From the IMG/VR virus record IMGVR_UViG_2537561603_000004, positions 1 to 53,635 of that record: a stretch of DNA of 53,635 bases; one strand, given 5' to 3'. The stretch's first letter is position 1, and every line of letters starts with the position of its first letter. A program made the position numbers and the translations under genes. Below, one piece after another: positions 2,660 through 38,828 of the stretch. Below the pieces are notes generated by a model. That model did no database searches and was not told the DNA's origin. It was given only the letters and a program-made list of their open reading frames with translations. Origin of the DNA: a virus (lineage: Duplodnaviria > Heunggongvirae > Uroviricota > Caudoviricetes).

Positions 2660-2669
2660 TCAGTGGTTG

Positions 2670-2861: not shown

Positions 2862-3012
2862 ACCGCCCCCCGTTTATTATTTATCTCCTCAGCCAGCCGC
2901 TGGGCTTTCAGCGGATTTCGGATAACAGAAAGACCGTGAAATACCCAGCCTCGCTTTGTAACGGAGTAGACGAAAGTGATCGCGCCTACCCGGATATTAT
3001 CGTGAGGATGGG

Positions 3013-3693
3013 TCATCGCCATTGCTCTCCAAATACAAAACCAATTTCAGCCAGTGCTTCGTCCATTTTTTCGATGAACTCCGGCACCATCTCGTCAAAA
3101 CTCGCCATGTACTTTTCATCCCGCTCAACCACGACATAATGCAGGCCTTCACGCTTCATTCGTGGGTCATAGTTGGCAAAGTACCAGGCATCTTTTCGTG
3201 TCACCCACATGCTGTACTGCACCTGGGCCATGTAAGCCGACTTTATGGCCTCGAAACCACCGAGCCGGAACTTCATGAAATCCCGGGAGGTAAACGGGCA
3301 TTTCAGCTCAAGGCCATTGCCGTCACTGCATAAACCATCGGGAGAGCAGGCGGTGCGCATACTTTCGTCGCGATAGATGATCGGGGATTCAGTAACATTC
3401 ACGCCGGAAGTGAATTCAAACAGGGTTCTGGCGTCGTTCTCGTACTGTTTTCTCCACGCCAGCGCCTTAGCATTAACTTCCGGAGCCACACCGGTGCAAA
3501 CCTCAGCCAGCAGGGTGTGGAAGTAGGACATTTTCATGTCAGGCCACTTCTTTCCTGAGCGGGGCTTTGCTATCACGTTGTGAACTTCTGAAGCGGTGAT
3601 GACGCCGAGCCGTAATTTGTGCCATGCATCATCCCCCTGTTCGACAGCTCTCACGTCGATCCCGGTACGCTGCAGGATAATGTCCGGTGTCAT
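3013..3693 (-). CDS. exo: Lambda exonuclease (Red-alpha)
   Basis: 226-aa translation is near-identical to lambda Exo as I recall it ([37 protein letters not shown]...). Confidence 0.95.
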
Positions 3694-4475
3694 GCTGCCA
3701 CCTTCTGCTCAGTGGCTTTCTGTTTCAGGAATCCAAGAGCTTTCACTGCTTCGGCCTGTGTCAGTTCTGACGATGCGCGAATGTCGCGGCGAAATATCTG
3801 GGAACAGAGCGGCAATAAGTCGACATCCCATGTTTTGTCCAGGGCAATCAGCAGAGTGTTAATCTCCTGCATGGTTTCATCGTTAACCGGAGTGATGTCG
3901 CGTTCCGGCTGACGTTCCGCAGTGTATGCAGTATTTTCGACAATGCGCTCGGCTTCATCCTTGTCATAGATACCAGCAAATCCGAAGGCCAGACGGGCAA
4001 ACTGAATCATGGCTTTATGCCGTAACATCCGTTTGGGATGCGACTGCCACGGCCCCGTGATTTCTCTGCCTTCGCGAGTTTTGAATGGTTCGCGGCGGCA
4101 TTCATCCATCCATTCGGTAACGCAGATCGGATGATTGCGGTCTTTGCGGTAAATCCGGCACGTACATGATTCATTGTCCTGCTCAAAGTCCATGCCATCA
4201 AACTGCTGGTTTTCATTGATGATGCGGGACCAGCCATCAACGCCCACCACCGGAACGATGCCGTTCTGCTTATCAGGGAAGGCGTAAATTTCTTTCGTCC
4301 ACGGATTAAGGCCGTACTGGTTGGCGACGATCAGCAATGCGATGAACTGCGCATCGCTGGCATCACCTTTAAATGCCGTCTGACGAAGAGTGGTGATCAG
4401 TTCCTGTGGGTCGACAGAATCCATGCCGACACGTTCAGCCAGCTTCCCAGCCAGCGTTGCGAGTGCTGTACTCAT
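3690..4475 (-). CDS. bet: Recombination protein Bet (Red-beta)
   Basis: 261-aa translation near-identical to lambda Bet ([37 protein letters not shown]...); 4-nt overlap with exo. Confidence 0.95.
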
Positions 4476-4480
4476 CCGTT

Positions 4481-4777
4481 TTATACCTCTGAATCAATAT
4501 CAACATGGTGGTGAGCAATGGTTTCAACCATGTACCGGATGTGTTCTGCCATGCGCTCCTGAAACTCAACATCGTCATCAAACGCACGGGTAATGGCTTT
4601 TTTGCTGGCCCCGCAGCGTTGCAAATGATCGATGCAGAGTGATTCAAACAGGTGCTGTGGAAGACCTTTTTCCATGTCGTCTGCCAGTTCTGCCTCTTTC
4701 TCTTCACGGGCGATCTGCTGGTAGTGACGCGCCCAGCTTTGAGCCTCAAGACGATCCTGAATGTAATAAGCGTTCAT
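4481..4777 (-). CDS. gam: Host RecBCD inhibitor Gam (short form)
   Basis: 98-aa translation near-identical to lambda Gam-S ([21 protein letters not shown]...); an in-frame stop 19 codons upstream precludes the long isoform here. Confidence 0.9.
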
Positions 4778-9025: not shown

Positions 9026-9723
9026 AAAACATCGCCGCACAGATGATTAACTTTGACCGTGAGCAGATGCGTCGGATCGCCAACAACATGCCGGAACAGT
9101 ACGACGAAAAGCCGCAGGTACAGCAGGTAGCGCAGATAATCAACGGTGTATTCAGCCAGTTACTGGCAACTTTCCCGGCGAGCCTGGCTAATCGTGACCA
9201 GAACGAACTGAACGAAATCCGCCGCCAGTGGGTTCTGGCTTTCCGGGAAAACGGGATCACCACGATGGAGCAGGTGAGCGCCGGAATGCGTGTTGCCCGT
9301 CGGCAGAATAGACCATTTCTGCCATCACCCGGGCAGTTTGTTGCATGGTGCCGGGAAGAAGCATCCGTTACCGCCGGGCTGCCAAACGTCAGCGAGCTGG
9401 TTGATATGGTTTACGAGTATTGCCGGAAGCGTGGTCTGTATCCGGATGCAGAGTCTTATCCGTGGAAATCAAACGCGCACTACTGGCTGGTTACCAACCT
9501 GTATCAGAACATGCGGGCCAATGCGTTGACTGACGCGGAATTACGGCGCAAGGCTGCCGATGAACTGGCCTGTATGACCGCGCGAATTAACCGTGGTGAG
9601 GCTATACCTGAACCAGTAAAACAACTTCCTGTCATGGGCGGTAGGCCTCTAAATCGTGCACAGGCTCTGGCGAAGATCGCAGAAATCAAAGCTAAGTTCG
9701 GGCTGAAAGGAGCGATGAAATAG
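9022..9723 (+). CDS. P: Replication protein P (DnaB helicase loader)
   Basis: 233-aa translation near-identical to lambda P (MKNIAAQMINFDREQMRRIANNMPEQYDEKPQVQQ...). Confidence 0.95.
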   Translation: MKNIAAQMINFDREQMRRIANNMPEQYDEKPQVQQVAQIINGVFSQLLATFPASLANRDQNELNEIRRQWVLAFRENGITTMEQVSAGMRVARRQNRPFLPSPGQFVAWCREEASVTAGLPNVSELVDMVYEYCRKRGLYPDAESYPWKSNAHYWLVTNLYQNMRANALTDAELRRKAADELACMTARINRGEAIPEPVKQLPVMGGRPLNRAQALAKIAEIKAKFGLKGAMK

Positions 9724-26687: not shown

Positions 26688-27020
26688 ATGACGAGCAAAG
26701 AAACCTTTACCCATTACCAGCCGCTGGGCAACAGTGACCCGGCTCATACCGCAACCGCGCCCGGCGGATTGAGTGCGAAAGCGCCTGCAATGACCCCGCT
26801 GATGCTGGACACCTCCAGCCGTAAGCTGGTTGCGTGGGATGGCACCACCGACGGTGCTGCCGTTGGCATTCTTGCGGTTGCTGCTGACCAGACCAGCACC
26901 ACGCTGACGTTCTACAAGTCCGGCACGTTCCGTTATGAGGATGTGCTCTGGCCGGAGGCTGCCAGCGACGAGACGAAAAAACGGACCGCGTTTGCCGGAA
27001 CGGCAATCAGCATCGTTTAA
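26688..27020 (+). CDS. D: Head decoration protein D
   Basis: 110-aa translation from the ATG at 26688 ([12 protein letters not shown]...) matches lambda gpD. Confidence 0.95.
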
Positions 27021-27040
27021 CTTTACCCTTCATCACTAAA

Positions 27041-27062
27041 GGCCGCCTGTGCGGCTTTTTTT
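27041..27062 (+). terminator. Hairpin plus T-run between D and E (possible attenuator)
   Basis: ggccgc-ctgt-gcggc followed by ttttttt. Confidence 0.35.
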
Positions 27063-27075
27063 ACGGGATTTTTTT

Positions 27076-27351
27076 ATGTCGATGTACACAACCGCCCAGC
27101 TGCTGGCGGCAAATGAGCAGAAATTTAAGTTTGATCCGCTGTTTCTGCGTCTCTTTTTCCGTGAGAGCTATCCCTTCACCACGGAGAAAGTCTATCTCTC
27201 ACAAATTCCGGGACTGGTAAACATGGCGCTGTACGTTTCGCCGATTGTTTCCGGTGAGGTTATCCGTTCCCGTGGCGGCTCCACCTCTGAATTTACGCCG
27301 GGATATGTCAAGCCGAAGCACTTAGCATGGCTTTCTGAGGCTTTCGTGTAG
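27076..27351 (+). pseudogene. E: Major capsid protein E, 5' portion (codons 1-81), interrupted by insertion at 27320/27321
   Basis: Translation MSMYTTAQLLAANEQKFKFDPLFL...TPGYVKPKH matches the lambda gpE N-terminus, then reads into unrelated sequence (LAWLSEAFV) and stops; the remainder of E resumes at 38043. Confidence 0.9.
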
Positions 27352-27448
27352 TTGCTGGTTTTTACACTTAATCTTTTGATAATAAAGAATAAGTCTATCT
27401 GGCGCTTTCACTGGATTTTCCTCGTTATCTGTGTGTTGCAATCATCTC

Positions 27449-27469
27449 TGTATTGCAGCTTGTATTGCT
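27449..27469 (+). repeat. Arm-type repeat, left copy (TGTATTGCAGCTTGTATTGCT)
   Basis: 21-bp sequence repeated in the same orientation at 37942-37962 (one mismatch), just inside each element end. Confidence 0.6.
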
Positions 27470-27483
27470 TTTTGGGGCTTAAA

Positions 27484-28719
27484 ATGGCTGGCGAGAACAA
27501 ACTGAGCGACAAAGCACTTAAAGGATATCTGGGGAAACCCAGAGAAAAGCAGATCACCATTGCTGATGGAAAGGGGCTTTCTATTCGTGTGAGTACCAAG
27601 GGGGCTGTGAGCTTTGTTTTCTTCTACAGGTTAGCAGGTGGCCGGGCTGCTCCGGTCTGGCTAACGTTGGGTAAATATCCTGATATGTCACTCAAACAGG
27701 CAAGGGAAAAGCGCGACGAGTGCCGTGGTTGGTTGGCTGACAAACGTGATCCGCGTATCCAGATTAAGATTCAGGCTGAAGAACGCTTAAAGCCGGTCAC
27801 AGTGGAGGATGCACTAAATTACTGGTATGAAAATTACTGTAAGGTGCGTCGTAAAACTCATGCTGTAACGCTTGGCAGATTTCGAAAGCATATTTTTCCC
27901 TATATCGGTCATTTGCCTGTAAATGACACTCACCTATATGAATGGCTGGACTGTTTTGACCGAATTAAACGTAATGCACCAGTTATGGCGGCGTATGTTT
28001 TTTCTGACACTAAATTAGCTCTTCGTTTTTGTCGGGTACGCCAGTACGCGACGTGTGATGCTTTAAAGGATTTGCGCATGAGTGATGTGGGGCAGATTGC
28101 AGGTAAGCGGGATCGGGTTCTGGATGAAGCCGAGCTGGGCCAGCTCTGGAAAGCAATTTTTGTCGAGCCTGATTTAAAACTAATGTCTGAATACACGCGA
28201 AAAATGTTTGTACTTTGTACAGTATTTGGATGTCGAATGAGTGAAGCCCGATTATCAGAATGGAGCGAATGGGATCTCGAAAGTTGGGTTTGGACTGTAC
28301 CAAAAGATCACTCAAAAACTGGTGTTGAAATCGTCAGACCAGTACCTGAAATTCTACGACAGTGGGTAACGGATGTTCACGAAGAGACAAAACATACTGG
28401 TTATGTGCTGGGAAGTCTGCGAATTAGAGAAAGCGTAAGCAAGATTGGGGGGAAAATCGGTAAACGTTTGGGCCATGAAAAACAATGGTCACTACACGAC
28501 CTTAGAAGAACGCTATCTACTCATCTAAGTGATCTCGGTGTTGAATTTTATGTAGTAGAACAACTGTTAGGCCATGCGCTACCTGGCGTGGCAGGTGTTT
28601 ACAACCGGAGTAAGTTTATGGCTAAAAAACTGGATGCTCTGGAACTCTGGACTACATATCTCAATAGCATCGCAGGTGCTGATTCAAAAGTGATAATCCT
28701 CAAACAAAAGGCTGGTTAA
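27484..28719 (+). CDS. Tyrosine integrase (P4-type, satellite-associated)
   Basis: 411-aa protein from the ATG at 27484; catalytic motifs HDLRRT and LLGHA...GVYNR; the N-terminal extension in the ORF track is unlikely to be coding. Confidence 0.85.
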   Translation: MAGENKLSDKALKGYLGKPREKQITIADGKGLSIRVSTKGAVSFVFFYRLAGGRAAPVWLTLGKYPDMSLKQAREKRDECRGWLADKRDPRIQIKIQAEERLKPVTVEDALNYWYENYCKVRRKTHAVTLGRFRKHIFPYIGHLPVNDTHLYEWLDCFDRIKRNAPVMAAYVFSDTKLALRFCRVRQYATCDALKDLRMSDVGQIAGKRDRVLDEAELGQLWKAIFVEPDLKLMSEYTRKMFVLCTVFGCRMSEARLSEWSEWDLESWVWTVPKDHSKTGVEIVRPVPEILRQWVTDVHEETKHTGYVLGSLRIRESVSKIGGKIGKRLGHEKQWSLHDLRRTLSTHLSDLGVEFYVVEQLLGHALPGVAGVYNRSKFMAKKLDALELWTTYLNSIAGADSKVIILKQKAG

Positions 28720-28720
28720 C

Positions 28721-28948
28721 ATGAAAAAAATGGCGATTGTTGATAAAAAGGGTCTGGAGTACATTCCTAACATCGATCGTATGATCCGTGAGAAAGAATG
28801 TCGGGAGCTAACCACTCTTGCGAACAGCACACGCTGGAAGCTGGAGAAGGAAGGGAAATTTCCTAAGCGGATCAAGATTGGCTCCACTGCTGTTGCATAT
28901 CGTCTTTCAGAAGTGCAGGCATGGATTCGAGGTGAGTGGGTAGTTTAA
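28721..28948 (+). CDS. AlpA-family transcriptional regulator/excisionase
   Basis: 75-aa protein with AlpA-like HTH (LANSTRWKLEKEGKFPKRIKIGSTAVAYRLSEVQAWI) directly after the integrase. Confidence 0.7.
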   Translation: MKKMAIVDKKGLEYIPNIDRMIREKECRELTTLANSTRWKLEKEGKFPKRIKIGSTAVAYRLSEVQAWIRGEWVV

Positions 28949-29017
28949 ATTATCTCAGAATAAAATATTATGAATTACTGATTTGAGAATTTGCACTCAA
29001 ATCAGTAATAACATTCT

Positions 29018-29554
29018 TTATAAGAGATTAAATCCAAATAAAGAGTAATCATATGCCGGGGTGCATTGCATCCCACTGAATATGCTGATATTTTTTTCTG
29101 TTTCTATCCTTTTTTCAATAAGTTGTTGTATATTTTTACAGTACAATTTGTGTGTGATGTTATTATCGTAAGCCTGATATAACAACGTCAATGTTGACGC
29201 TATGAAACATGCAGAAAGAAAATGAACTAGTACATGTGAACGTTTTTTGGTTGTCCATGATGCATTCGCTTGTGAAATATAAATCATTCTGAGAAGGATA
29301 ATGATGATAGACAGTAACAGACCACTCAATAAAATAAGCATTGGGTTTGCGTATTTTATTAATGGTTGAGAGCAAAAAACCATTATGGCTCCTGTGACTG
29401 CGTATGAGAAAAAGGAGTAATTAAACTTTTTACTTCTTCTCTCAAGTATTTTAATTTCATCTTGTGTGGGGGTTTTAGATGCCTCTAATATAAGTTTATT
29501 GAATGTTTCTATTATCTTGTTTTTTATGTTTGTGGCTATTTTTTTTAGATTCAT
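29018..29554 (-). CDS. Multi-pass membrane protein of unknown function (accessory cargo)
   Basis: 178-aa ORF with ~4 hydrophobic helices in a strongly AT-rich segment (about 28950-29870); own RBS (gggag). Confidence 0.5.
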   Translation of the reverse strand: MNLKKIATNIKNKIIETFNKLILEASKTPTQDEIKILERRSKKFNYSFFSYAVTGAIMVFCSQPLIKYANPMLILLSGLLLSIIIILLRMIYISQANASWTTKKRSHVLVHFLSACFIASTLTLLYQAYDNNITHKLYCKNIQQLIEKRIETEKNISIFSGMQCTPAYDYSLFGFNLL

Positions 29555-29904
29555 AGTATTCTAACTCCCTTAACTTATTTATTACTTTCTCTTTATGATA
29601 AGAGAGGGGAATGACTTGGTAAAGTGATTTGTAATTAATAATGATAATCCTTGCGATAAATATTTCTGCAAGTTATTTATCTGTTTGTTGCTATCTTGTT
29701 AAGCGTTGGGTGTGGTTTATGTTTGGAGCGACTTTATTTAATCGTGATTTTATGGATCTATATTTATATCCTGTAAGATAAGCGCATGTTAGTTCAGGAG
29801 TAGTGTCAGATAAAATTATTCGGAGTAGAACTACCTTTTCTGTTTATTGCCAGTATTTACATAGCAATGCGCCGTAGTTACTCACATCACGGCGCTGATA
29901 GTAA

Positions 29905-30207
29905 TTATTCAGATTCTTTGGCTTTACGCCGCTGGAGTTCTTCACGAGCGACGGCTACGAGTTGCCCGATTTCCTCCGCTGCCTTGATGCCGATTTGTTC
30001 GACCTTAGCTAAGGCATCCAGTGAAGACACGAGGGGATTTTCTCCGCTTCCTTCTGCCTGGCGGCGGGCGATCTCACCGCGCATGGCGGTTACTATGAAT
30101 CCGGCGTTGCTTTCGCCGTCCAGTTTTACGGATTCCATGCCCTCCATAACATCGTGGGGAACCCTGATCGTTGTCATTTGCGATTTTGCATTTTTGTATA
30201 CAGACAT
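29905..30207 (-). CDS. Ribbon-helix-helix (CopG/Arc-like) DNA-binding protein, putative repressor
   Basis: 100-aa ORF; N-terminal TTIRVPHDVMEGMESV pattern resembles an RHH beta-strand/helix; divergent from the rightward replication operon with operator-like repeats between. Confidence 0.45.
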   Translation of the reverse strand: MSVYKNAKSQMTTIRVPHDVMEGMESVKLDGESNAGFIVTAMRGEIARRQAEGSGENPLVSSLDALAKVEQIGIKAAEEIGQLVAVAREELQRRKAKESE

Positions 30208-30226
30208 AGTTAATCACCAATTTGTT

Positions 30227-30329
30227 ATGTGTATATCACTATACACAAAAGTGAGATATAAAAACACTTGCAATGTATATCACCACAATATAATGTATAT
30301 CTCACATCATGGTCGCTATGTATCTCACA
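30227..30329. promoter_or_regulatory. Divergent promoter region with repeated TGTAT(A)TC(A/T)CA operator-like motifs
   Basis: Direct repeats at 30227-30240, 30273-30284, 30293-30306 and 30318-30329, plus an inverted element (atatcac ... gtgagatat). Confidence 0.5.
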
Positions 30330-30415
30330 ATGATCGATTCATAAAAACGACGAAACCCGGCAGTGCGCGAACACTAACCGGGCTTCTAACCAAACCGTTA
30401 AACGAGGTAACGATT

Positions 30416-30781
30416 ATGGCTGGAACACAGCATACCCAAACTCACCCTAAATTTATATACACCTTTCTGGCACTACACCACGACCGCATGGCAGATGGAG
30501 CAACTACGGTACATGTTGCCGCTGACACGCTGGTTGATGCCCGCAAGATGGTTAAGGAGATGGGCTATACTGCGGCTTTCTGGAAAGGGCGTGAAGAAAA
30601 CACGCTGTTTATTCAGAAATGCGAAAACAATTTCATCTGGCGTTTTATCGCCCTGAGCACCGCACAACCACGCGTAATACACATCGAGGCCGCCAGCGAA
30701 CAGGAAGCCCGCCAGCAATTCCCAACTGGCTACGTGATGATATTCGCCGCCCGTATTCGTCAGGAGGTGTGCCATGAATGA
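30416..30781 (+). CDS. Hypothetical protein (first gene of rightward operon)
   Basis: 121-aa ORF from the ATG at 30416; the upstream part of the 304-aa track ORF spans the promoter and is rejected. Confidence 0.4.
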   Translation: MAGTQHTQTHPKFIYTFLALHHDRMADGATTVHVAADTLVDARKMVKEMGYTAAFWKGREENTLFIQKCENNFIWRFIALSTAQPRVIHIEAASEQEARQQFPTGYVMIFAARIRQEVCHE

Positions 30782-30998
30782 TCTTTATTTTAAAGTGCTG
30801 ACACATGCTGAAAACGCGCTCGTTTGTGGCAAAAATATGCGAGAAATCTTATCAACCTGGCTTGATGGGACAACAAATGCGGAACACGATGAACGGGATG
30901 CTAATTTAGCTGGAGCGTTAATTACGTTACTTGATCCTGTCATCAAAGAGCTGGATGAAGCTATAAAAATACACGACCAGAGCTATACCGGAGAATAA
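30774..30998 (+). CDS. Hypothetical protein
   Basis: 74-aa ORF with strong RBS (aggaggtg), overlapping the upstream gene stop. Confidence 0.4.
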   Translation: MNDLYFKVLTHAENALVCGKNMREILSTWLDGTTNAEHDERDANLAGALITLLDPVIKELDEAIKIHDQSYTGE

Positions 30999-31001
30999 AA
31001 A

Positions 31002-31289
31002 ATGAAAAATAAATTTTCTGGCTTTATTGCCAGCGGTCAAACTCATTCAAAAATCAGCCTTGGGGATATTTTCAAAGACAGCTATGGCTATCGGGTAAAG
31101 ATTATTTCGGTTGATGATCGTCGTGTCTCTTATTTGCGTGATGGTTATGATTTTGAATGTGTTATGCCGCGTCAGCAGTTCGAAAGAGATTTCATTCTGG
31201 TAAAAAATTGCAAGACAGATAATCAGAGGCGTGCCGCAGGCTATATCCGTAAAATTCGGGCAATGTTAGTTGCCGGAGGTAACAAATGA
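31002..31289 (+). CDS. Hypothetical protein
   Basis: 95-aa ORF overlapping the primase start. Confidence 0.4.
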   Translation: MKNKFSGFIASGQTHSKISLGDIFKDSYGYRVKIISVDDRRVSYLRDGYDFECVMPRQQFERDFILVKNCKTDNQRRAAGYIRKIRAMLVAGGNK

Positions 31290-33106
31290 AACGTGCTCCG
31301 AACTTAAAATACCAACCGCGCGACAAAATGACGGAAGTCATCATTTTTGCTGGCAGTGATGCCTGGAGCCATGCAAAAGAATGGAATGAATGGGCAGGTA
31401 AGCATATTGCAGCAGATGATACACCACCAGTCATTCTGGGTACGGAACAACTGGAAAACCTGGATGATATGCAAATTATCGATGAAGGCCGTCATTATGT
31501 GCGTGTTTATCGTGCCGGAAAGATTGCAGAGAAAAGTCTGACGAAGGTTGCGACATTACTTGCTATTGCAGGCGTAAAGGAAGCACGTTGTTACCGTAGC
31601 TTTGTTGATCGAGAGCCTGAAGACTGGACTCCGCGCCTTGTCGGCCTAAAAGCTGAAGCGGAGCATGGGGAAAGTCTGGTGATTGAACTGCCAGTTAAGA
31701 AGGCTGAGCGCAAAAATGACGAGCGTGCTTCATCTTTGGCGTTGAATCAGATGGGGGCCAGCCAGCGCGGTGAAGTTCTCCTTGCACATTACGGCGGCGA
31801 ACTGGCAATCAATGCCGACTCTGACACCGTTCATCATTACAACGGCGTTGTATGGGAGCCGGTTCAGGATAAAGAGTTACAGCGTGCTATGGCGCAGATT
31901 TTCATTGATGCGGAGATCAGCTATTCGCAGAACGCTATTAAATCGGCGGTAGATACCATGAAGTTAAGTTTGCCTGTAATGGGGAATACAGCCCGTAACC
32001 TGATTGGATTCAGTAACGGGGTATTTGATACCAGAACTGGTAACTTTCGGGAGCATAACAAAAACGACTGGTTGTTAATTGCCAGTGAATTACCTTTCAG
32101 CCCACCAGCAGAGGGGGAAACGCTGGCAACACATGCGCCGAATTTCTGGAAGTGGTTGCGCCGTTCGGTGGCTGAGAATGACCGCAAGGCAGATCGCGTA
32201 CTGGCGGCATTATTCATGGTGCTGGCGAACCGGTACGACTGGCAGTTATTCATTGAGGTAACAGGGCCGGGGGGAAGTGGTAAAAGTGTGATGGCGGAGA
32301 TTTGCACCATGCTGGCGGGTAAGGCTAATACAGTATCAGCAAGCATGAAGGCGCTGGAAGATGCAAGGGAACGTGCGTTAGTGGTTGGCTTTTCGCTGAT
32401 TATCATGCCGGATATGACCCGCTACGCTGGTGATGGGGCAGGGATTAAGGCCATTACAGGCGGTGACAAGGTGGCAATTGACCCGAAACACAAAGCCCCC
32501 TATTCAACGCGTATTCCGGCAGTAGTGCTGGCGGTTAACAATAACGCCATGTCATTCAGTGACCGCAGCGGGGGGATCTCACGTCGTCGGGTGATATTCA
32601 ATTTTTCGGAAGTTGTACCGGAGAACGAACGCGATTCGATGCTGGCGGAAAAAATAGAAGGTGAGCTGGCGGTAGTGATTCGCCATCTGCTTACACGGTT
32701 TGCTGATCAGGACGAAGCCAGACGCCTGTTATATGAGCAGCAGAAATCTGAAGAAGCACTGGCGATAAAGCGAGAGGGGGATTCGCTGGTGGACTTCTGC
32801 GGCTATCTCATGGCATCGGTAATGTGTGATGGCCTGTTAGTGGGTAATGCTGAAATTGTGCCATTCAGCCCACGCAGGTATCTCTATCATGCCTATCTGG
32901 CTTATATGAGGGCACATGGGTTTGGTAAACCTGTAACACTGACGCGCTTCGGTAAAGATATGCCGGGGGCAATGGCGGAATATGGCAGGGAGTATATGAA
33001 ACGGAAAACGAAGCACGGTTTGCGTTCAAACGTGACACTGACGGAGGAATCAGAAGACTGGATGCCATCATGTGTATCGGTCACTAATGACGATAGCAAA
33101 AATTAA
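31286..33106 (+). CDS. Primase-helicase (P4/PICI-type Pri-Rep, SF3 helicase C-terminal domain)
   Basis: 606-aa protein with Walker A (GPGGSGKS) and following Walker B-like region; RBS ggaggt; followed immediately by iterons. Confidence 0.75.
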   Translation: MKRAPNLKYQPRDKMTEVIIFAGSDAWSHAKEWNEWAGKHIAADDTPPVILGTEQLENLDDMQIIDEGRHYVRVYRAGKIAEKSLTKVATLLAIAGVKEARCYRSFVDREPEDWTPRLVGLKAEAEHGESLVIELPVKKAERKNDERASSLALNQMGASQRGEVLLAHYGGELAINADSDTVHHYNGVVWEPVQDKELQRAMAQIFIDAEISYSQNAIKSAVDTMKLSLPVMGNTARNLIGFSNGVFDTRTGNFREHNKNDWLLIASELPFSPPAEGETLATHAPNFWKWLRRSVAENDRKADRVLAALFMVLANRYDWQLFIEVTGPGGSGKSVMAEICTMLAGKANTVSASMKALEDARERALVVGFSLIIMPDMTRYAGDGAGIKAITGGDKVAIDPKHKAPYSTRIPAVVLAVNNNAMSFSDRSGGISRRRVIFNFSEVVPENERDSMLAEKIEGELAVVIRHLLTRFADQDEARRLLYEQQKSEEALAIKREGDSLVDFCGYLMASVMCDGLLVGNAEIVPFSPRRYLYHAYLAYMRAHGFGKPVTLTRFGKDMPGAMAEYGREYMKRKTKHGLRSNVTLTEESEDWMPSCVSVTNDDSKN

Positions 33107-33116
33107 ACTTATGGAA

Positions 33117-33345
33117 TAACTGTTCACCACTGTTCACCCTGTCATAAATATCTTTTATATCAGTATATTATAGGGTGAACAGTTATTTATGAACTGTTCA
33201 CCAAACTATTCACTGTTCACCTTTTTGATTGTTTATTGAGCTTCAAGGGTGAACAGTGGTGAACAGTTGGTGAATAGTTTTTGTGAAACTGTTCACCAAT
33301 TAACATTATGAATTAAAAGAGAAAATATCAAAAGGTGAACAGGTG
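33117..33345. repeat. Replication origin iterons (CTGTTCACC / GGTGAACAG, about 10 copies in both orientations)
   Basis: Dense array of 9-bp repeats immediately downstream of the primase-helicase gene. Confidence 0.8.
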
Positions 33346-33393
33346 AAGGGTTAAAACGCAAAAATTTTAATTTACTGCTGTGAGATAAAGCCT

Positions 33394-33639
33394 ATGACAG
33401 CGAAGCACACAAAAAAATCACAATCGCACGCCCTTGATTTGACGGAACACTGGTTAAGGGTGTCGATAAAAATCATCGACCGCAACGCCGGGGAAGGATA
33501 CGCGAAAGCACATCCCGAACTGATTAGCGCATTCATGACAACGGCGGCTGCAAACTTTGCCACTCTGACCGAACGGGAGATTGCTGAAGCGGAGGAAGTG
33601 ACAACAATCAATATTAAGTCCGGAGAGCAGGCAGCATGA
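33394..33639 (+). CDS. Hypothetical protein
   Basis: 81-aa ORF between ori and ssb. Confidence 0.35.
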   Translation: MTAKHTKKSQSHALDLTEHWLRVSIKIIDRNAGEGYAKAHPELISAFMTTAAANFATLTEREIAEAEEVTTINIKSGEQAA

Positions 33640-34085
33640 CGGCGCAAATATCAGTTTACGGGCGGTTGGTGGACGACCCGCAGACAAAACAGACCAGCAA
33701 GGGCACCCCCATGACGCTGGCGCGTATGGCGGTATCACTGCCCTGCAGTCAGTCGGATGACGGTCAGGCGACGATGTGGTTATCTGTCCTGGCGTTTGGC
33801 AGACAAGCCGACGCGCTGGCAAAGCATCACAAAGGCGAACTCCTGAGCGTGGCGGGTAACATGCAGATGAGCCAGTGGACTGGACAGAACGGCGAAACGC
33901 GGCAGGGCTGGCAGGTTATCGCAGACAGCGTAATCAGTGCGCGATCGGTGCGACCGGGCGGCAATAAAGGCCAACAGGGGCAGGCTACTGACGCACTGAA
34001 CAGAGCAAAACAACAGGCAGATCAGCAAGGAAGCCAGCCACCAGTGGGAGATAATGAGCAATGGGGAGATGATATCCCGTTTTAA
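33636..34085 (+). CDS. ssb: Single-stranded DNA-binding protein (SSB)
   Basis: 149-aa protein with OB-fold-like N-terminus (ISVYGRLVDDPQ...), Gly/Gln-rich linker and the SSB-signature acidic tail DDIPF. Confidence 0.7.
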   Translation: MTAQISVYGRLVDDPQTKQTSKGTPMTLARMAVSLPCSQSDDGQATMWLSVLAFGRQADALAKHHKGELLSVAGNMQMSQWTGQNGETRQGWQVIADSVISARSVRPGGNKGQQGQATDALNRAKQQADQQGSQPPVGDNEQWGDDIPF

Positions 34086-34302
34086 ATATTGCCAATAAAA
34101 AAAGGCCGGAAAAAATAAATTTTCCGGCATGCTACATAAATCCCGACCAAAGGGAGTGAAGATATTAACACTAATTTTCCGCACTGAAGTTGTCACCCCA
34201 AAACTTTATACAACATTGCACTCGGTTGCATGTATTCGCATGACAAATATCGGTGATAGCATATATCCACAATTATTTTTAATGAATGCAAAGAGGATGC
34301 GT

Positions 34303-35343
34303 ATGGTTGATTTATATTCGCCTACTCAGCTTGTACAGGTGGTTAATGCTGTAGATGTACAAAAACAACTAAATGCGTTGTTTACCAGTTTGTTTTTTAC
34401 TCGCTCGGTAATGTTTGAATCGCGCGATATTATTCTTGATACAATCGACGATCCAAATATCCCAATTGCAGCGTTTTGTTCTCCTATGGTGGGTAGTAAA
34501 GTTTCACGTGACGAAGGGTACGAATCAAAAACAATTCGTCCAGGCTATATGAAGCCGAAAAGCAGCATTGATCCAAATAAGTTAGCTGTGCGCCCTGCTG
34601 GTGTATCACCTGAGCAATACAATGCTTTTGGGGCGCGTAATATTAAAGTTAAACAGGCGATTGTAAATCAAGCTAAAGCTATTCGTGCACGTATTGAATG
34701 GCTTGCTGTTCAGGCAATCACAACGGGGAAAAATATCATTGAGGGCGATGGTATTGAACGTTATGAGCTGGACTGGAATATTAAACCACAAAATATCATC
34801 ACTCAGTCTGGCGGTGCTGAGTGGTCAGGTAAGGATAAAGAAACTTTTGATCCAAATGATGATATTGAGAGCTACGCAGAATTTAGTGAGGGCGTCACTA
34901 ATATTATCATTATGGGCGGTAATGTATGGAAGAAATACCGTTCATTCAGAGCGATAAAAGAGGCTCTGGATACCCGTCGTGGTTCTAATTCCGAACTGGA
35001 AACGGCCCTTAAAGACCTTGGTGATTCGGTGAGTTTTAAAGGGTATATGGGCGATGTTGCGATTGTTGTTTACAGCGGGCGTTATACCGACGAGGACGGA
35101 ACAGAAAAACATTTCCTTGATCCTGATTTGATGGTGCTTGGCAATACGGCTCTTCAGGGGATTGTCGCCTATGGCGGTATTCAGGATCCGGAGCTAATCC
35201 GAATGGGGCTGACTAAAGCCGAACTTGCACCGAAAAACTATATTGTGCCTGGTGATCCGGCTATTGAATATGTGCAGACACATTCAGCACCACAGCCAAT
35301 ACCGGCCCGCATCAATCGTTTTGTTACCGTTCGCATTGGCTAA
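34303..35343 (+). CDS. Element-encoded major capsid protein, divergent homologue of lambda gpE
   Basis: ~346-aa protein with clear but partial similarity to lambda gpE along its length (e.g. TRRGSNSELETA.KDLG...GDVAIVVYSG); ATG at 34303 with RBS aagagga. Confidence 0.8.
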   Translation: MVDLYSPTQLVQVVNAVDVQKQLNALFTSLFFTRSVMFESRDIILDTIDDPNIPIAAFCSPMVGSKVSRDEGYESKTIRPGYMKPKSSIDPNKLAVRPAGVSPEQYNAFGARNIKVKQAIVNQAKAIRARIEWLAVQAITTGKNIIEGDGIERYELDWNIKPQNIITQSGGAEWSGKDKETFDPNDDIESYAEFSEGVTNIIIMGGNVWKKYRSFRAIKEALDTRRGSNSELETALKDLGDSVSFKGYMGDVAIVVYSGRYTDEDGTEKHFLDPDLMVLGNTALQGIVAYGGIQDPELIRMGLTKAELAPKNYIVPGDPAIEYVQTHSAPQPIPARINRFVTVRIG

Positions 35344-35352
35344 GGGGGAGCA

Positions 35353-35694
35353 ATGGCTACTCATTACACTGAACTCATGGCTGGCACTGAAGCACTGGTG
35401 ACTACGCTGGGGATATTTTCAGCTAATAAAGGGGTAATTCCTGCATTTACGCCACTGATGCAGGAAGATGCAACAGGTGCACTGGTGGTATGGGATGGTT
35501 CGAGCGTAGGTAAAGCGGTTTATGTTTCCGCTGTACAAATCGACACCGCGAAAAAAACACAGGCTCAGGTCTATAAGACAGGTGTCTTAAATGTTGATGC
35601 TCTGAACTGGCCTGAGTCTGTTAAAGAACTGTCAGTAAAGGTTGCAGCGTTTGTTGGCTCAGGTATTTCTGTTCAGCCGCTGGCTCGTGTGTAA
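35353..35694 (+). CDS. Element-encoded decoration protein, divergent homologue of lambda gpD
   Basis: 113-aa protein alignable to lambda gpD (PAFTPLMQEDATGALVVWDGSSVGKAV... versus [27 protein letters not shown]...). Confidence 0.7.
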   Translation: MATHYTELMAGTEALVTTLGIFSANKGVIPAFTPLMQEDATGALVVWDGSSVGKAVYVSAVQIDTAKKTQAQVYKTGVLNVDALNWPESVKELSVKVAAFVGSGISVQPLARV

Positions 35695-35705
35695 AGGGGG
35701 ATACA

Positions 35706-36089
35706 ATGCAGAATGATTACAATGACCTTAAGCCAATTGCCGAAATGATGTACCCGAATCAAGCTGTAGAGGAATTAAAAGCTATCGCTGACAAAATGTG
35801 TTTAAGCGAGCGCCTTGTTGATATGAATCAGGTGATGGAAATTACAACCCTGAGTCGTCGTACACTGCTAAACCTTGAGGCTAGTGGAGAGTTCCCGGAG
35901 CGTGTGCAGGTTACGGAAGGGCGTAAGGCCTGGTATTTAAGTGAAGTGATCGACTGGATAAATAATATTCCTCGCGCTTCTGAATATTGCCGCGTACCTG
36001 TCCCAAAAAAGCCAGATGCGGCGCTATGCCTCAAGATTGAGCGTGTACGCCGCAATGCACGGGATGGTCGCTATAAGCTGATTGGTTGA
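35706..36089 (+). CDS. AlpA/MerR-like winged-HTH protein upstream of the element cos site
   Basis: 127-aa protein; segment MEITTLSRRTLLNLEASGEFPERVQVTEGRKAWYLSEVIDWI is AlpA-like. Confidence 0.5.
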   Translation: MQNDYNDLKPIAEMMYPNQAVEELKAIADKMCLSERLVDMNQVMEITTLSRRTLLNLEASGEFPERVQVTEGRKAWYLSEVIDWINNIPRASEYCRVPVPKKPDAALCLKIERVRRNARDGRYKLIG

Positions 36090-36109
36090 TGAAATTAGGG
36101 CCCGCTCTG

Positions 36110-36320
36110 GCTGGCGGGTCCTTTCCGGCGATCCAGAACGTTACGGGGCGTCAGGCGCGCAGTTTTTTGCTATTTGTGAAAATTTTCCTGTTTAAGGCGT
36201 TTCCGTTCTTCTTCGCCGTAACTTAATGTTTTTATTAAAAACACCCCCTAAAAAGAAAGGAAACGACAGGTGCTAAAAACAGGCTTTTTGGCCTCTGTCG
36301 TTTCCTTTCTCTGGTTTTGT
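36110..36320 (+). other. Second cos-like site (cosQ/cosB conserved, cosN region divergent)
   Basis: ~210 bp alignable to the prophage cos at 20912-21125; the cosN-equivalent reads gggcgtcaggcg instead of gggcggcgacct. Confidence 0.8.
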
Positions 36321-36687
36321 TGCCATCCGTCGCGGTCTATCACCAGAAAAAATCTTATCCCTGAGTTGAATCAGGCACTATTCAGAAGCGGCCAATAACG
36401 CGCCGCTAGCTTCACTTCATAGTTATGGCCTACTTCTGCGCCATTGCAATTGCTTTATGCGCCTTGATGGTGGAATATAGAGCAAGCAGTTTGCGAATAA
36501 CAAAGTTTCATATGTTTTTTGCTGTGTGGCTAGACAACTTTACAGCAGAGTTTTGTGTCAGTTCTTTATGTGTGCAAGCAAGCTTGAGGGGGAATTACTT
36601 CTGGCTGCATCTTTGCTTAAGAACAGCAATAATTTAATCATAAGGAAATGTATATAAGCCTGATTAAATTTCAGGCTTATTGAAATG

Positions 36688-37830
36688 TTAACTCCTTATT
36701 AGAGAGTAAATTCCATCCTCTTTAAGGAAGTCTATTACTTCAAAGAATGAGATAAAGAATTCCCAAGAACCAAAAGCATATGCATGAATTTCGTAAGGTG
36801 CAAAATGGAATCTAAATCCATCACTATTTATTGTGAACGAGTCTAAGTTACTATCCATGATACCCGTTGCAAACGTACTAATGTCGTCCTCACTTGGTTT
36901 TTCACCAGTTTTCTCCCAAAATTCACGAGCTGATTCAGAGATTATTTTTTGTTTTATCTTATTAATCGCTTCTTGCTCTTTCCCTTCGGTAAATACATCC
37001 CATAAACTAAATTTGTATGCGTAGTCATCCTTGGTTATTACGAAATTACTAGTTTCAAAATGACTGTTAGGGTGTGCTGCTCCCGCACCATACCAATGTA
37101 CGGAATGAAGGATGCTCATGACATTTTCGTTACAGTATGAGATGTTATAACTTTCATTATAGGAACTAGTGTAAGTGTGTTTATATTCTTCATCCCAATA
37201 TGGTGTTCCTGGCCATAGTGATGTGCGTTCAGAAAAAATATGTAAAGCCGCTTTTCCTGAAAAGTAATCACTAATGAGTTTTGCTGATTTCGGTAATGTA
37301 TGGCTTTCAATTCTTGGATATGCTATTTCAATTTCATGCCCTGGGATCTTGTTATATTCTTCCTTGAAAACCTCGCTGCTAAAGTTAAATGGCCCATAAG
37401 TGATACCTTGAGATATTTCAAGTTTTTGTTGCGATGCTGCTAATCTTAAAGATCTAGATAAAATGTCCCAACCATCATTTCTCTTAAAATCAATGAATTG
37501 GAGCTTGCTTGATATGTAGGCGGGTACTTCGCAATCATCAATAAGTAATGGTATCACGAACACATCATCTGGTTTGTAATACTTTAGTTTATCAATGGCG
37601 TCATTTATTTCGCGGCGAATATAACCATTTTTCTGAGTGCTCACTTTGCTAAGGATAAGGATTATCAAGTTTGAATTAGCGAAGTTTTTTTGGATTTCAT
37701 AATCCCAGTTTACGCCAGCGGGTATATCTTTTACATCCATCCAAGGGGAATATCCTCCACTTTTTAGCCTTTCATAGATTTCTTCAGTTATCGTTTCATC
37801 TTCTTTTGCATGAGCAAGAAAAATTTTCAT
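36688..37830 (-). CDS. TIR-domain protein with uncharacterised C-terminal domain (candidate anti-phage effector)
   Basis: 380-aa ORF; N-terminal ~120 aa fit a bacterial TIR fold (MKIFLAHAKEDE...LKSGGYSPWMDVKDIPAGVNWDYEI...SNLIILILSKVS...REINDAI); AT-rich, own RBS (aagga); between the element cos and its right end. Confidence 0.7.
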   Translation of the reverse strand: MKIFLAHAKEDETITEEIYERLKSGGYSPWMDVKDIPAGVNWDYEIQKNFANSNLIILILSKVSTQKNGYIRREINDAIDKLKYYKPDDVFVIPLLIDDCEVPAYISSKLQFIDFKRNDGWDILSRSLRLAASQQKLEISQGITYGPFNFSSEVFKEEYNKIPGHEIEIAYPRIESHTLPKSAKLISDYFSGKAALHIFSERTSLWPGTPYWDEEYKHTYTSSYNESYNISYCNENVMSILHSVHWYGAGAAHPNSHFETSNFVITKDDYAYKFSLWDVFTEGKEQEAINKIKQKIISESAREFWEKTGEKPSEDDISTFATGIMDSNLDSFTINSDGFRFHFAPYEIHAYAFGSWEFFISFFEVIDFLKEDGIYSLIRS

Positions 37831-37941
37831 TGAATATTCCTTTATAATTTAACTAATTAAGTGAAGGAGGCTTTACTTGGCTGTGTTAGAAAAAATTCGG
37901 TTTGTTTTTTGTACGATGCCAAGAAGGCTTTTCCCTAACCA

Positions 37942-37962
37942 TGTATTGCAGCATGTATTGCT
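37942..37962 (+). repeat. Arm-type repeat, right copy (TGTATTGCAGCATGTATTGCT)
   Basis: Same-orientation copy of the 27449-27469 repeat. Confidence 0.6.
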
Positions 37963-38042
37963 ACGTAATTCTGCACCCTCTCATTTATAAAATAAATCTC
38001 TGTTAAATCAAGTATCTTTTTTCTATTTGACTCATGTAACCC

Positions 38043-38828
38043 AAGCATGAAGTGAATCCGCAGATGACCCTGCGTCGCCTGCCGGATGAAGATCCGCAGA
38101 ATCTGGTGGACCCGGCTTACCGCCGCCGTCGCATCATCATGCAGAACATGCGTGACGAAGAGCTGGCCATTGCTCAGGTCGAAGAGATGCAGGCAGTTTC
38201 TGCCGTGCTTAAGGGCAAATACACCATGACCGGTGAAGCCTTCGATCCGGTTGAGGTGGATATGGGCCGCAGTGAGGAGAATAACATCACGCAGTCCGGC
38301 GGCACGGAGTGGAGCAAGCGTGACAAGTCCACGTATGACCCGACCGACGATATCGAAGCCTACGCGCTGAACGCCAGCGGTGTGGTGAATATCATCGTGT
38401 TCGATCCGAAAGGCTGGGCGCTGTTCCGTTCCTTCAAAGCCGTCAAGGAGAAGCTGGATACCCGTCGTGGCTCTAATTCCGAGCTGGAGACAGCGGTGAA
38501 AGACCTGGGTAAAGCGGTGTCCTATAAGGGGATGTATGGCGATGTGGCCATCGTCGTGTATTCCGGACAGTACGTGGAAAACGGCGTCAAAAAGAACTTC
38601 CTGCCGGACAACACGATGGTGCTGGGGAACACTCAGGCACGCGGTCTGCGCACCTATGGCTGCATTCAGGATGCGGACGCACAGCGCGAAGGCATTAACG
38701 CCTCTGCCCGTTACCCGAAAAACTGGGTGACCACCGGCGATCCGGCGCGTGAGTTCACCATGATTCAGTCAGCACCGCTGATGCTGCTGGCTGACCCTGA
38801 TGAGTTCGTGTCCGTACAACTGGCGTAA
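38043..38828 (+). pseudogene. E: Major capsid protein E, 3' portion (codons ~80-341), separated from 5' portion by the insertion
   Basis: Translation KHEVNPQMTLRRLPDEDPQNL...FVSVQLA matches lambda gpE from residue ~80 to the C-terminus, in frame with the core. Confidence 0.9.

What the first reader, a model, noticed from the sequence alone, without database searches (positions are those of the whole stretch)
31286..33345. Primase-helicase followed by a dense iteron origin
The 606-aa protein has a Walker A P-loop (GPGGSGKS) in a C-terminal helicase-like domain. It is followed immediately by about ten copies of a 9-bp iteron (CTGTTCACC and its complement) within ~230 bp, the classic rep-ori arrangement of PICI and P4-type satellites. 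An SSB with the DDIPF tail follows, giving the element an autonomous replication module.
Basis: partly seen in the sequence, partly recalled or inferred. Interest (0 to 1): 0.5.

Follow-up and report, generated by a model that had tools for sequence, protein, structure and literature searches.

The report
Satellite replication module: helicase-initiator plus iteron origin
This is the replication module (initiator-helicase gene, repeat-built origin, SSB gene) of an already published phage satellite that sits inside its helper prophage's capsid gene; it is ordinary, except that its "primase" lacks every recognisable primase feature.

Summary
ORF 31286-33106 (606 aa) carries a Walker A motif, GPGGSGKS. 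Twelve bases after its stop codon lie 9 exact and 2-3 degenerate copies of (A)CTGTTCACC within 225 bp, with two AT-rich spacers. An 81-aa ORF follows, then an SSB ending in DDIPF.

The element is already known. It is a helper-embedded PICI of the "capE" type, inserted in the lambda-like major capsid gene E of a prophage. Its Rep differs by 1 residue, and its origin by 2 nt, from the published founder 11capE of E. coli NRG857c. The module is syntenic with the pri-rep-ori of EcCICFT073, which was validated experimentally.

- The iteron core TGTTCACC is the phage P4 "type 1" origin repeat, and the Rep C-terminus matches the P4 alpha origin-binding domain (PDB 1KA8, E=2e-24).
- A natural variant changes a patch of that domain and all of its iterons together, which supports direct recognition.
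- The "primase" label is not supported. The zinc ribbon and Toprim domain of P4 alpha are absent. In their place is a ~130-aa alpha/beta module of unknown function that occurs fused to four different ATPase families.

Priming is therefore probably done by the host, but this is an inference.

The parts
27316..38047 (+). The whole satellite (about 10.73 kb; helper-embedded PICI, capE type), inserted in a lambda-like major capsid gene E. The crossover core AAGCA lies at 27316-27320 and 38043-38047.
   Evidence: The E N-terminal fragment 27049-27351 covers Pfam Phage_cap_E positions 1-78, and the C-terminal fragment 38052-38828 covers positions 95-328. Junction sequences. The same split is annotated in RefSeq. 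The left end is identical to the published site group E_Phage_cap_E_80. 96.7-98.7% nt identity to 11capE of NRG857c over 27001-36320.
31002..31289 (+). DUF4222 gene. Its stop codon overlaps the rep start codon. It is a conserved upstream partner of rep; function unknown.
   Evidence: Pfam DUF4222, E=3e-22. Same position in EcCICFT073 and 11capE. No similarity to P4 Cnr.
31286..33106 (+). rep: a 606-aa replication initiator and SF3 helicase, annotated 'DNA primase family protein'.
   Evidence: One residue different (S84N) from the 11capE protein. 44% identical to EcCICFT073 Pri-Rep.
31286..31669 (+). Rep N-terminal alpha/beta module (residues 1-128), followed by a disordered linker (129-160). 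Not a recognisable primase domain.
31772..32161 (+). D5_N domain (residues 163-292).
   Evidence: Pfam PF08706, E=1.4e-13. 38% identical to P4 alpha over this stretch.
32162..32695 (+). SF3 helicase core (residues about 293-470). Walker A GPGGSGKS at nt 32264-32287, Walker B LIIMPD at 32396-32413, motif C VLAVNNN at 32525-32545, SRRR at 32579-32590.
   Evidence: Pfam DUF5906 (E=1.3e-10) and PPV_E1_C. Match to the SaPI5 primase-helicase structure 7OLA, E=2.6e-10. G327, G332, K333, S334, N419 and R434 are invariant in alignment A3. 63% identical to P4 alpha.
32777..33067 (+). C-terminal origin-binding domain (residues 498-594), P4-alpha type. The presumed wing, KRKTKHG, is residues 572-578 (nt 32999-33019).
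   Evidence: PDB 1KA8 (P4 alpha origin-binding domain), E=1.9e-24. Pfam Pox_D5, E=2.9e-12. Wing and iteron co-vary.
33119..33351 (.). Iteron array, the predicted origin. ACTGTTCACC units lie at 33119(+), 33129(+), 33174(-), 33193(+), 33205(+, degenerate), 33212(+), 33248(-), 33258(-), 33269(-, 1 mismatch), 33288(+), 33334(-, 1 mismatch) and 33342(-, degenerate).
   Evidence: Same core as the annotated P4 'ori type 1 repeat'. Same layout in vB_KppS-Ant, in EcCICFT073 with a different iteron, and in 79 of 80 related loci.
33139..33173 (.). AT-rich spacer 1 (35 bp, 80% A+T) between convergent iterons. Candidate unwinding site.
   Evidence: P4 ori has a comparable AT-rich spacer of about 35 bp between iterons. 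EcCICFT073 has a 38-bp equivalent.
33298..33333 (.). AT-rich spacer 2 (36 bp, 86% A+T) between convergent iterons. Second candidate unwinding site.
33394..33639 (+). 81-aa ORF of unknown function, translationally coupled to ssb (ATGA overlap).
   Evidence: phrog_1231, E=2e-48, unknown function. An 85-aa ORF sits at the same position in EcCICFT073.
33636..34085 (+). ssb: a 149-aa single-stranded DNA-binding protein with a C-terminal GDDIPF tip.
   Evidence: Pfam SSB, E=1.7e-16. TIGR00621 at 70.1 bits, above its cut-off of 53.95. 69% identical to the EcCICFT073 SSB.

Best explanation
This is the autonomous replication module of a helper-embedded PICI satellite.

Rep is a three-part initiator: an N-terminal alpha/beta module of unknown role, a D5_N plus SF3 helicase, and a C-terminal winged-helix origin-binding domain of the P4-alpha type.

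The proposed mechanism, step by step:
1. After induction, Rep binds the ACTGTTCACC iterons just downstream of its own gene through the C-terminal domain. Tandem copies are 10-11 bp apart, so they lie on one face of the helix. This binding is inferred from homology and co-variation.
2. Rep assembles into SF3 hexamers, melts one or both AT-rich spacers flanked by convergent iterons, and unwinds 3'->5'. This is inferred from P4 alpha and other SF3 initiators.
3. The element's own SSB coats the unwound strands, and its DDIPF tip recruits host replisome proteins. This is inferred from established SSB-tip biology.

Rep has neither the zinc ribbon nor the catalytic Toprim residues of P4 alpha, and the island encodes no other primase. 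Primers are therefore most likely made by host enzymes (DnaG, possibly via SSB or PriA-dependent primosome assembly). This is an inference with moderate confidence.
For: Domain architecture: D5_N, DUF5906 and Pox_D5; 1KA8 at E=1.9e-24 and 7OLA at E=2.6e-10.

Iteron statistics.

Link to P4: the iteron core equals the annotated P4 ori/crr type 1 repeat.

Link to EcCICFT073: same synteny (DUF4222-rep-ori-small ORF-ssb) and same origin layout. Its pri-rep-ori segment maintained a temperature-sensitive plasmid, and both the rep and the ori deletions impaired this (PMC6092414).

Conservation: in 79 of 80 related IMG/VR loci the most frequent 8-mer in the 420 bp after rep is the TGTTCAC(C) iteron, which is rare in the flanks.

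Co-variation:
- In locus L057 every iteron is CTGTTCAT(T) at unchanged positions, and Rep differs in a short patch, KRKTKHGL -> KKRTTAGV.
- EcCICFT073 has TRKVKGV at that patch and uses CTGTCTACC.

Against a primase role: alpha homology starts at residue 149. P4 alpha has Zn_Ribbon_Prim and Toprim_3, this protein has neither, and none of 38 family members does. No acidic residues sit at the Toprim catalytic positions. hhalign gives probability 0.2%.

Host-factor sites: no DnaA box, IHF site or GATC in the origin.
Against: - No experiment has been done on this element's rep or ori.
- For the near-identical 11capE, the attP:attB ratio after excision was about 1 in two of three replicates and 1.6-1.9 in the third. 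Autonomous post-excision replication was weak or undetectable there (PMC10111431).
- My AF2 model of the C-terminal domain was of low confidence (pLDDT 58). Placing the co-varying patch in the 'wing' rests on the 1KA8 alignment and on canonical winged-helix topology, not on a model.
- The co-variation rests on three specificity classes only.
Confidence: 0.8

Rival explanations
1. One reading: Rep is a true primase-helicase like P4 alpha. The N-terminal ~130-aa module is a minimal or divergent Toprim-type primase, and the element primes its own replication.
For: - The module occupies the position that Toprim holds in P4 alpha, directly before D5_N.
- PHROG 'DNA primase' profiles align over it (phrog_864, phrog_1156).
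- The EcCICFT073 protein, with the same module, supported plasmid maintenance given only rep+ori.
Against: - No zinc ribbon and no Toprim Pfam hit in any of 38 family members.
- The Toprim Glu and DxD positions are invariant Ala-Gly.
- hhalign probability is 0.2%, and Foldseek against PDB finds nothing significant.
- 130 residues are far fewer than any known DnaG-type catalytic core.
Confidence: 0.25
2. The iteron block is not the origin itself. It would be a crr-like cis enhancer or copy-control site, or an operator for the downstream ssb and capsid genes, with initiation occurring elsewhere or only through the helper's origin.
For: In P4 the iteron cluster directly downstream of alpha is crr, and the true ori lies 4.5 kb away. 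11capE showed little post-excision replication.
Against: - No second iteron cluster exists in the island. Within 27316-38047 the only other match, with one mismatch, is at 35669.
- The block has the P4-ori layout of tandem iterons, an AT-rich spacer of about 35 bp, then inverted iterons.
- Deleting the homologous block in EcCICFT073 impaired plasmid maintenance.
Confidence: 0.07
3. The module is largely dispensable in this helper-embedded configuration. The satellite is mainly copied passively as part of the replicating helper prophage, and rep-ori is a relic inherited from free-standing PICI ancestors.
For: The composite 61icd replicated before the satellite excised, and attP:attB was about 1 afterwards in two of three replicates.
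Against: - Rep is intact.
- Many database entries are about 100% identical to it (BLASTP identity as rounded in the table).
- It is found with complete iteron arrays in 79 of 80 loci.
- Concerted change of all iterons together with the Rep patch in L057 implies continuing selection on the interaction.
Confidence: 0.12

Closest known systems
Eco567.11capE, the founding helper-embedded PICI of E. coli NRG857c (Tommasini, Mageeney and Williams 2023, PMC10111431)
   Same: Same insertion site (lambda-like E gene, site group E_Phage_cap_E_80), same gene order, Rep differing by one residue (S84N) and a 290-bp rep-to-next-ORF interval differing by 2 nt. [quoted passage not shown]
   Different: The cargo at the right end differs: TIR-DUF3298 here, against HEPN plus DUF262 in NRG857c. 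The paper did not dissect Rep or the iterons.
EcCICFT073 pri-rep-ori, the model Gram-negative PICI (Fillol-Salom et al. 2018, PMC6092414)
   Same: Identical synteny (DUF4222, rep, about 290 bp of origin, small ORF, ssb, later the E-like and D-like capsid genes). Same N-terminal module (47% identical). Same origin layout of iteron sets flanking AT-rich DNA. The function of its rep and ori was shown by a plasmid assay.
   Different: Rep is only 44% identical overall and 33% in the DNA-binding domain. Its iteron is CTGTCTACC rather than CTGTTCACC. It is integrated in the chromosome (ycfD-phoQ), not in a prophage.
Phage P4 alpha protein with ori and crr
   Same: D5_N, the SF3 helicase (63% identical) and the winged-helix origin-binding domain (48% identical; 1KA8 E=2e-24). 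The same octamer TGTTCACC, often the same 10-mer. Tandem 10-11-bp spacing and an AT-rich spacer of about 35 bp. An iteron cluster directly after the gene.
   Different: Alpha has 777 aa with a zinc ribbon (30-66) and Toprim with EGYATA and DRD (210-299), and these are missing here. P4 needs two separated cis sites (ori and crr), while this element has one cluster. No cnr homologue is present. The island has no sid, psu or delta genes.
SaPI Pri/Rep-ori; SaPI5 PriRep1 structure 7OLA
   Same: An SF3 helicase-initiator whose origin lies immediately 3' of the gene, with iterons flanking AT-rich DNA.
   Different: Distant in sequence (E=2.6e-10, helicase core only). The SaPI primase part is of another type. 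Gram-positive hosts.

Membership tests
Gram-negative PICI replication module (EcCICFT073 type) | Origin immediately 3' of the rep gene, built of iteron sets flanking AT-rich DNA | tested here: met
   The first iteron starts 12 nt after the stop codon. There are 12 units and two spacers of 80-86% A+T. Definition taken from PMC6092414.
Gram-negative PICI replication module (EcCICFT073 type) | Homology and synteny with the validated EcCICFT073 pri-rep region | tested here: met
   44% identity over the full length. Gene order DUF4222-rep-ori-small ORF-ssb.
Gram-negative PICI replication module (EcCICFT073 type) | rep plus ori drive autonomous replication | not testable with these tools
   Needs a plasmid maintenance assay. 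The published attP:attB data on 11capE are equivocal.
Helper-embedded PICI (HE-PICI), capE group | Integrated inside a late gene of a helper prophage and co-oriented with it, with int, alpA and rep in the same direction | tested here: met
   The E gene is split at profile position about 80. Terminase, portal, protease and D lie upstream; FI and tail genes lie downstream.
Helper-embedded PICI (HE-PICI), capE group | Close identity to the founding element 11capE | tested here: met
   96.7-98.7% nt identity over 27001-36320.
P4 alpha-type primase-helicase | N-terminal zinc ribbon (Zn_Ribbon_Prim) | tested here: not met
   Present in P4 alpha at residues 30-66 and absent here. The alignment shows that the N-terminal ~170 residues of alpha have no counterpart.
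P4 alpha-type primase-helicase | Toprim catalytic domain with the EGYATA Glu and a DxD motif | tested here: not met
   No Toprim hit in the protein or in 38 relatives. Ala22-Gly23 and Ala77-Gly78 occupy the corresponding strand ends. hhalign probability 0.2%. The fold resemblance is only marginal.
P4 alpha-type primase-helicase | D5_N plus SF3 helicase core with Walker A, Walker B and motif C | tested here: met
   50.6% identity to alpha over residues 149-596.
P4 alpha-type primase-helicase | C-terminal winged-helix origin-binding domain that recognises TGTTCACC iterons | tested here: met
   The domain matches 1KA8 at E=1.9e-24, and the iteron core is identical. Actual binding was not tested.
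P4 alpha-type primase-helicase | Two separated cis sites (ori and crr) | tested here: not met
   There is a single cluster in the island. In P4 the sites are at 4291-4590 and 9310-9413.
P4-like satellite (whole element) | Capsid-size and transactivation genes sid, psu and delta | tested here: not met
   Pfam and PHROG scans of the island ORFs give int, AlpA, Icd-like, DUF4222, Rep, SSB, an E-like capsid protein, a D-like decoration protein, a second AlpA and TIR. None is Psu-, Sid- or Delta-like.
Bacterial SSB | OB-fold SSB domain plus an acidic C-terminal tip ending in DDIPF | tested here: met
   Pfam SSB over residues 4-99. TIGR00621 at 70.1 bits, above its cut-off of 53.95. The tail is ...WGDDIPF.
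DnaA-dependent iteron plasmid origin | DnaA boxes, often with IHF sites or GATC clusters, next to the iterons | tested here: not met
   No DnaA box with up to 1 mismatch, no IHF consensus and no GATC in 33051-33420.

The most novel reading that the evidence does not exclude
Two linked readings remain open.

(a) The HE-PICI Rep and P4 alpha recognise the same ACTGTTCACC iteron through homologous domains. Two satellite families with different helpers (lambdoid phages versus P2) could then fire, titrate or block each other's origins when they share a cell.

(b) The ~130-aa N-terminal module is not a primase. It occurs in Gram-negative PICI replicases fused to four different ATPase families (D5_N/SF3, DUF927, VapE-like, AAA_25). 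It could instead be a new adaptor that recruits the host priming machinery, or a new minimal primase.
Probability: 0.35. Interest if true: 0.45.

Novelty: already known. Interest (0 to 1): 0.25.

Why it matters
The case shows that a first-pass reading of raw sequence can correctly recognise a satellite replication module. It adds little new biology, because the element (11capE type) and the kind of module (EcCICFT073 pri-rep-ori) are both published.

Three points are useful beyond that:
- The widespread annotation 'DNA primase family protein' for these satellite initiators is unsupported by any primase feature. This bears on how these satellites depend on host or helper replication proteins.
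- Sharing of iteron specificity with P4 predicts cross-talk between satellite families, which can be tested.
- The natural variant in which the Rep patch and the iterons change together gives a ready-made specificity-swap experiment for the P4-type origin-binding domain.

Tried and rejected
- **DUF4222 as a Cnr analogue.** DUF4222 sits upstream of rep, as cnr sits upstream of P4 alpha. I found no sequence similarity and no PDB relative.
- **AF2 model of the C-terminal domain.** I made it to locate the co-varying patch, but the pLDDT was 58, so it was not used.
- **Rfam scan of the island.** No hit at gathering thresholds, so no C4/IsrK-type immunity RNA was detected.
- **Host-factor sites in the origin.** No DnaA box, IHF site or GATC.
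- **Literature search for the bare iteron string.** It returned only unrelated primer sequences.
- **Promoter and terminator scan around the origin.** Nothing beyond chance expectation.
- **The exact iteron copy at 48663.** It lies inside the prophage tail gene and is treated as chance.
Full report
**Observation**

The ORF at 31286-33106 (+) is intact and encodes 606 aa. GPGGSGKS is residues 327-334, nt 32264-32287. Twelve nucleotides after the TAA stop codon begins a block of repeats.

CTGTTCACC occurs nine times exactly between 33120 and 33342 on both strands, plus a one-mismatch copy at 33269. The only other exact copy in the 53.6-kb window is at 48663. Allowing one mismatch, the window has 35 matches against 11.5 +/- 3.5 in dinucleotide shuffles, and no shuffle of 100 reaches 35.

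The real unit is the 10-mer ACTGTTCACC, with 12 units when up to two mismatches are allowed. The layout is:
- two tandem (+) units;
- a 35-bp spacer of 80% A+T (33139-33173);
- one (-) unit and then three (+) units;
- a 26-bp spacer;
- three (-) units and one (+) unit;
- a 36-bp spacer of 86% A+T (33298-33333);
- two overlapping (-) units (33334 and 33342).

Tandem units are 10-11 bp apart. An 81-aa ORF (33394-33639) and then a 149-aa SSB gene (33636-34085) follow. The SSB matches Pfam SSB and TIGR00621 above its cut-off and has a GDDIPF tail.

The P-loop domain is central rather than C-terminal. A small ORF separates the repeats from ssb.

**What the element is**

The module lies in a 10.7-kb island (about 27316-38047). 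Its genes, in order, are:
- a P4-type tyrosine integrase;
- AlpA;
- two leftward small genes;
- an Icd-like gene;
- a 74-aa ORF;
- DUF4222;
- rep, the repeats, the 81-aa ORF and ssb;
- a lambda-E-like major capsid gene and a lambda-D-like decoration gene;
- a second AlpA-like gene;
- a leftward TIR-DUF3298 gene.

The island interrupts the lambda-like major capsid gene E of a lambdoid prophage. The N-terminal fragment (27049-27351) covers Pfam profile positions 1-78, and the C-terminal fragment (38052-38828) covers positions 95-328. Terminase, portal, protease and D genes lie upstream, and FI and tail genes lie downstream. RefSeq annotates the same split in other E. coli genomes.

This configuration is published. 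It is the helper-embedded PICI (HE-PICI) of Tommasini, Mageeney and Williams 2023, whose founding member 11capE sits in the E gene of prophage 50icd in E. coli NRG857c. The left junction in the window is the same as in their site group E_Phage_cap_E_80.

Direct comparison with NRG857c gives 96.7-98.7% nucleotide identity from the E fragment to the end of the second AlpA gene. Rep differs by one residue (S84N). The rep-to-next-ORF interval differs by two bases. The cargo at the right end is different.

The E::integrase junction is present in 173 of 5,426 complete E. coli genomes. DNA similar to rep-ori-ssb is present in 1,663 genomes.

**Rep**

Pfam finds D5_N (163-292), DUF5906, which is the SF3 P-loop (326-434), and Pox_D5 (497-592). 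Against solved structures, residues 498-594 match the origin-binding domain of phage P4 alpha (1KA8, E=1.9e-24). Residues 238-441 match the SaPI5 primase-helicase (7OLA, E=2.6e-10).

tblastn against phage records aligns P4 alpha at 50.6% identity, but only from residue 149 onward. Domain by domain, the SF3 core is 63% identical to alpha and the binding domain 48% identical. This is closer than to EcCICFT073 Pri-Rep (54% and 33%). The N-terminal 128 residues, by contrast, are 47% identical to EcCICFT073 and at noise level (20%) to alpha.

P4 alpha is known to combine a DnaG-type primase, an SF3 helicase and a winged-helix origin-binding domain (PMC2777425). Pfam places its zinc ribbon at 30-66 and its Toprim at 210-299. 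Neither domain is found in the window protein.

**The N-terminal module**

A full HMMER scan of 1.84 billion cluster representatives with residues 1-160 found only 91 relatives. In nearly all of them the module lies at or near the N-terminus. These proteins carry different ATPase modules behind it: D5_N/DUF5906/Pox_D5, DUF927, VapE-like or AAA_25. None of the 38 sampled proteins has a Toprim or zinc-ribbon hit.

AlphaFold gives a confident beta-alpha-beta-alpha-beta-alpha-beta-alpha fold for residues 1-125 and a disordered linker at 130-158.

The fold searches were as follows:
- Foldseek finds nothing significant in PDB.
- In BFVD, Foldseek finds one uncharacterised phage protein and only weak TOPRIM-annotated hits.
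- Profile-profile comparison with a P4-type Toprim alignment gives probability 0.2%.

At the strand ends where Toprim carries its catalytic Glu and DxD, the family has nearly invariant Ala22-Gly23 and Ala77-Gly78.

I conclude that nothing supports primase activity. Whether the module is a decayed Toprim remains open. The 'primase' names in databases derive from families (primase_Cterm TIGR01613, D5_N, Pox_D5) that describe the helicase and the DNA-binding parts.

**The repeats as Rep binding sites**

The octamer TGTTCACC is the repeat annotated as 'ori type 1 repeat' in the P4 record, in both ori and crr. P4 ori even shares the 10-mer, the 10-11-bp tandem spacing and an AT-rich spacer of about 35 bp. 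In P4, crr lies directly downstream of alpha, as the block does here, but this island has only one cluster.

The 16.5-kb element vB_KppS-Ant has a Rep 74% identical and eight TGTTCACC copies in an alignable layout.

EcCICFT073 has the same synteny and the same layout, but its repeat is CTGTCTACC. Its rep-ori segment was shown to maintain a temperature-sensitive plasmid, and the rep and ori deletions impaired this (PMC6092414).

In 80 IMG/VR loci with Reps 77-100% identical, the most frequent 8-mer in the 420 bp after the gene is the TGTTCAC(C) repeat in 79. It has 3-9 copies there against 0-2 in about 6 kb of flanks.

The exception is L057, and it is informative. Every repeat is CTGTTCAT(T) at unchanged positions. 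Its Rep is 98-99% identical in D5_N and the helicase, and differs in the binding domain mainly in one patch, KRKTKHGL -> KKRTTAGV.

Across all loci, the patch K(R/K)(K/H)TK(H/Q/N)G goes with TGTTCACC, KKRTTAG goes with CTGTTCAT, and TRKVKGV goes with CTGTCTACC. By alignment with 1KA8 and canonical winged-helix topology, this patch is the beta-hairpin wing, which together with the recognition helix contacts DNA. My own model of this domain was too poor to confirm that.

**Mechanism**

Shown by sequence: an intact SF3 helicase with a P4-type origin-binding domain; a cognate iteron array with AT-rich spacers; an SSB with the host-interaction tip; and no DnaA box, IHF site or GATC.

Inferred from P4 alpha, SF3 initiators and EcCICFT073: Rep binds the iterons, oligomerises, melts an AT-rich spacer and unwinds. 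SSB coats the single strands and recruits host replisome proteins.

Inferred with moderate confidence: priming is by host enzymes, because neither Rep nor any other island gene shows primase features.

Evidence that tempers this comes from 11capE. Its attP:attB ratio after excision was about 1 in two of three replicates, so much of its amplification may be passive, within the replicating helper.

**Novelty and score**

The element and the kind of module are already described.

The added points are a shared iteron specificity with P4, the patch-iteron co-variation, and a modular N-terminal domain of unknown function in place of the primase. These are modest and untested.

Interest 0.25; novelty 'already known'.

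Noticed in passing
window 27049-27351 and 38052-38828, with the island at 27316-38047: The satellite is inserted inside the lambda-like major capsid gene E of a lambdoid prophage and carries its own E-like and D-like capsid genes (34129-35343, 35353-35694). This is the published HE-PICI 'capE' configuration. 173 of 5,426 complete E. coli genomes have the same E::integrase junction.
   Followed up: yes
window 36688-37830 (-): The cargo gene encodes a TIR plus DUF3298 protein. Its TIR part resembles the TIR domains of PADLOC defence models (E=1.6e-17 for a TIR-containing pAgo-system protein model; also ThsB-like). The otherwise near-identical 11capE of NRG857c carries HEPN plus DUF262 genes at this position, so this is a swappable defence-cargo slot.
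   Followed up: partly
L057 (IMGVR_UViG_2784132061_000002), Rep at 2501-4315: This Rep is 98-99% identical to the window protein in D5_N and the helicase, but only 51% identical in the N-terminal module. This implies recombination at the module boundary. The same locus has the CTGTTCAT iteron variant.
   Followed up: partly
L082 (IMGVR_UViG_2843276658_000002), about 4570-4700: Downstream of its iteron origin this relative has a separate tandem array of a unit of about 10 bp (CATCTCACTG, roughly 10 copies). The array is absent from the window.
   Followed up: no
window 35706-36089 (+): A second AlpA-family gene (127 aa) lies downstream of the satellite's capsid genes, in addition to the alpA next to the integrase (28721-28948).
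   Followed up: no
window 29905-30207 (-) and 30416-30781 (+): A divergent pair lies between alpA and the replication genes: a YlcI/YnfO-family gene, and an Icd-like gene whose PHROG relatives are annotated 'transcriptional repressor'. No C4/IsrK-type RNA was detected by Rfam in the island.
   Followed up: partly
window 33394-33639 (+): An 81-aa ORF of unknown function (phrog_1231) is translationally coupled to ssb. An ORF of similar size occupies the same position in EcCICFT073 and 11capE. It may be a further replication factor.
   Followed up: no
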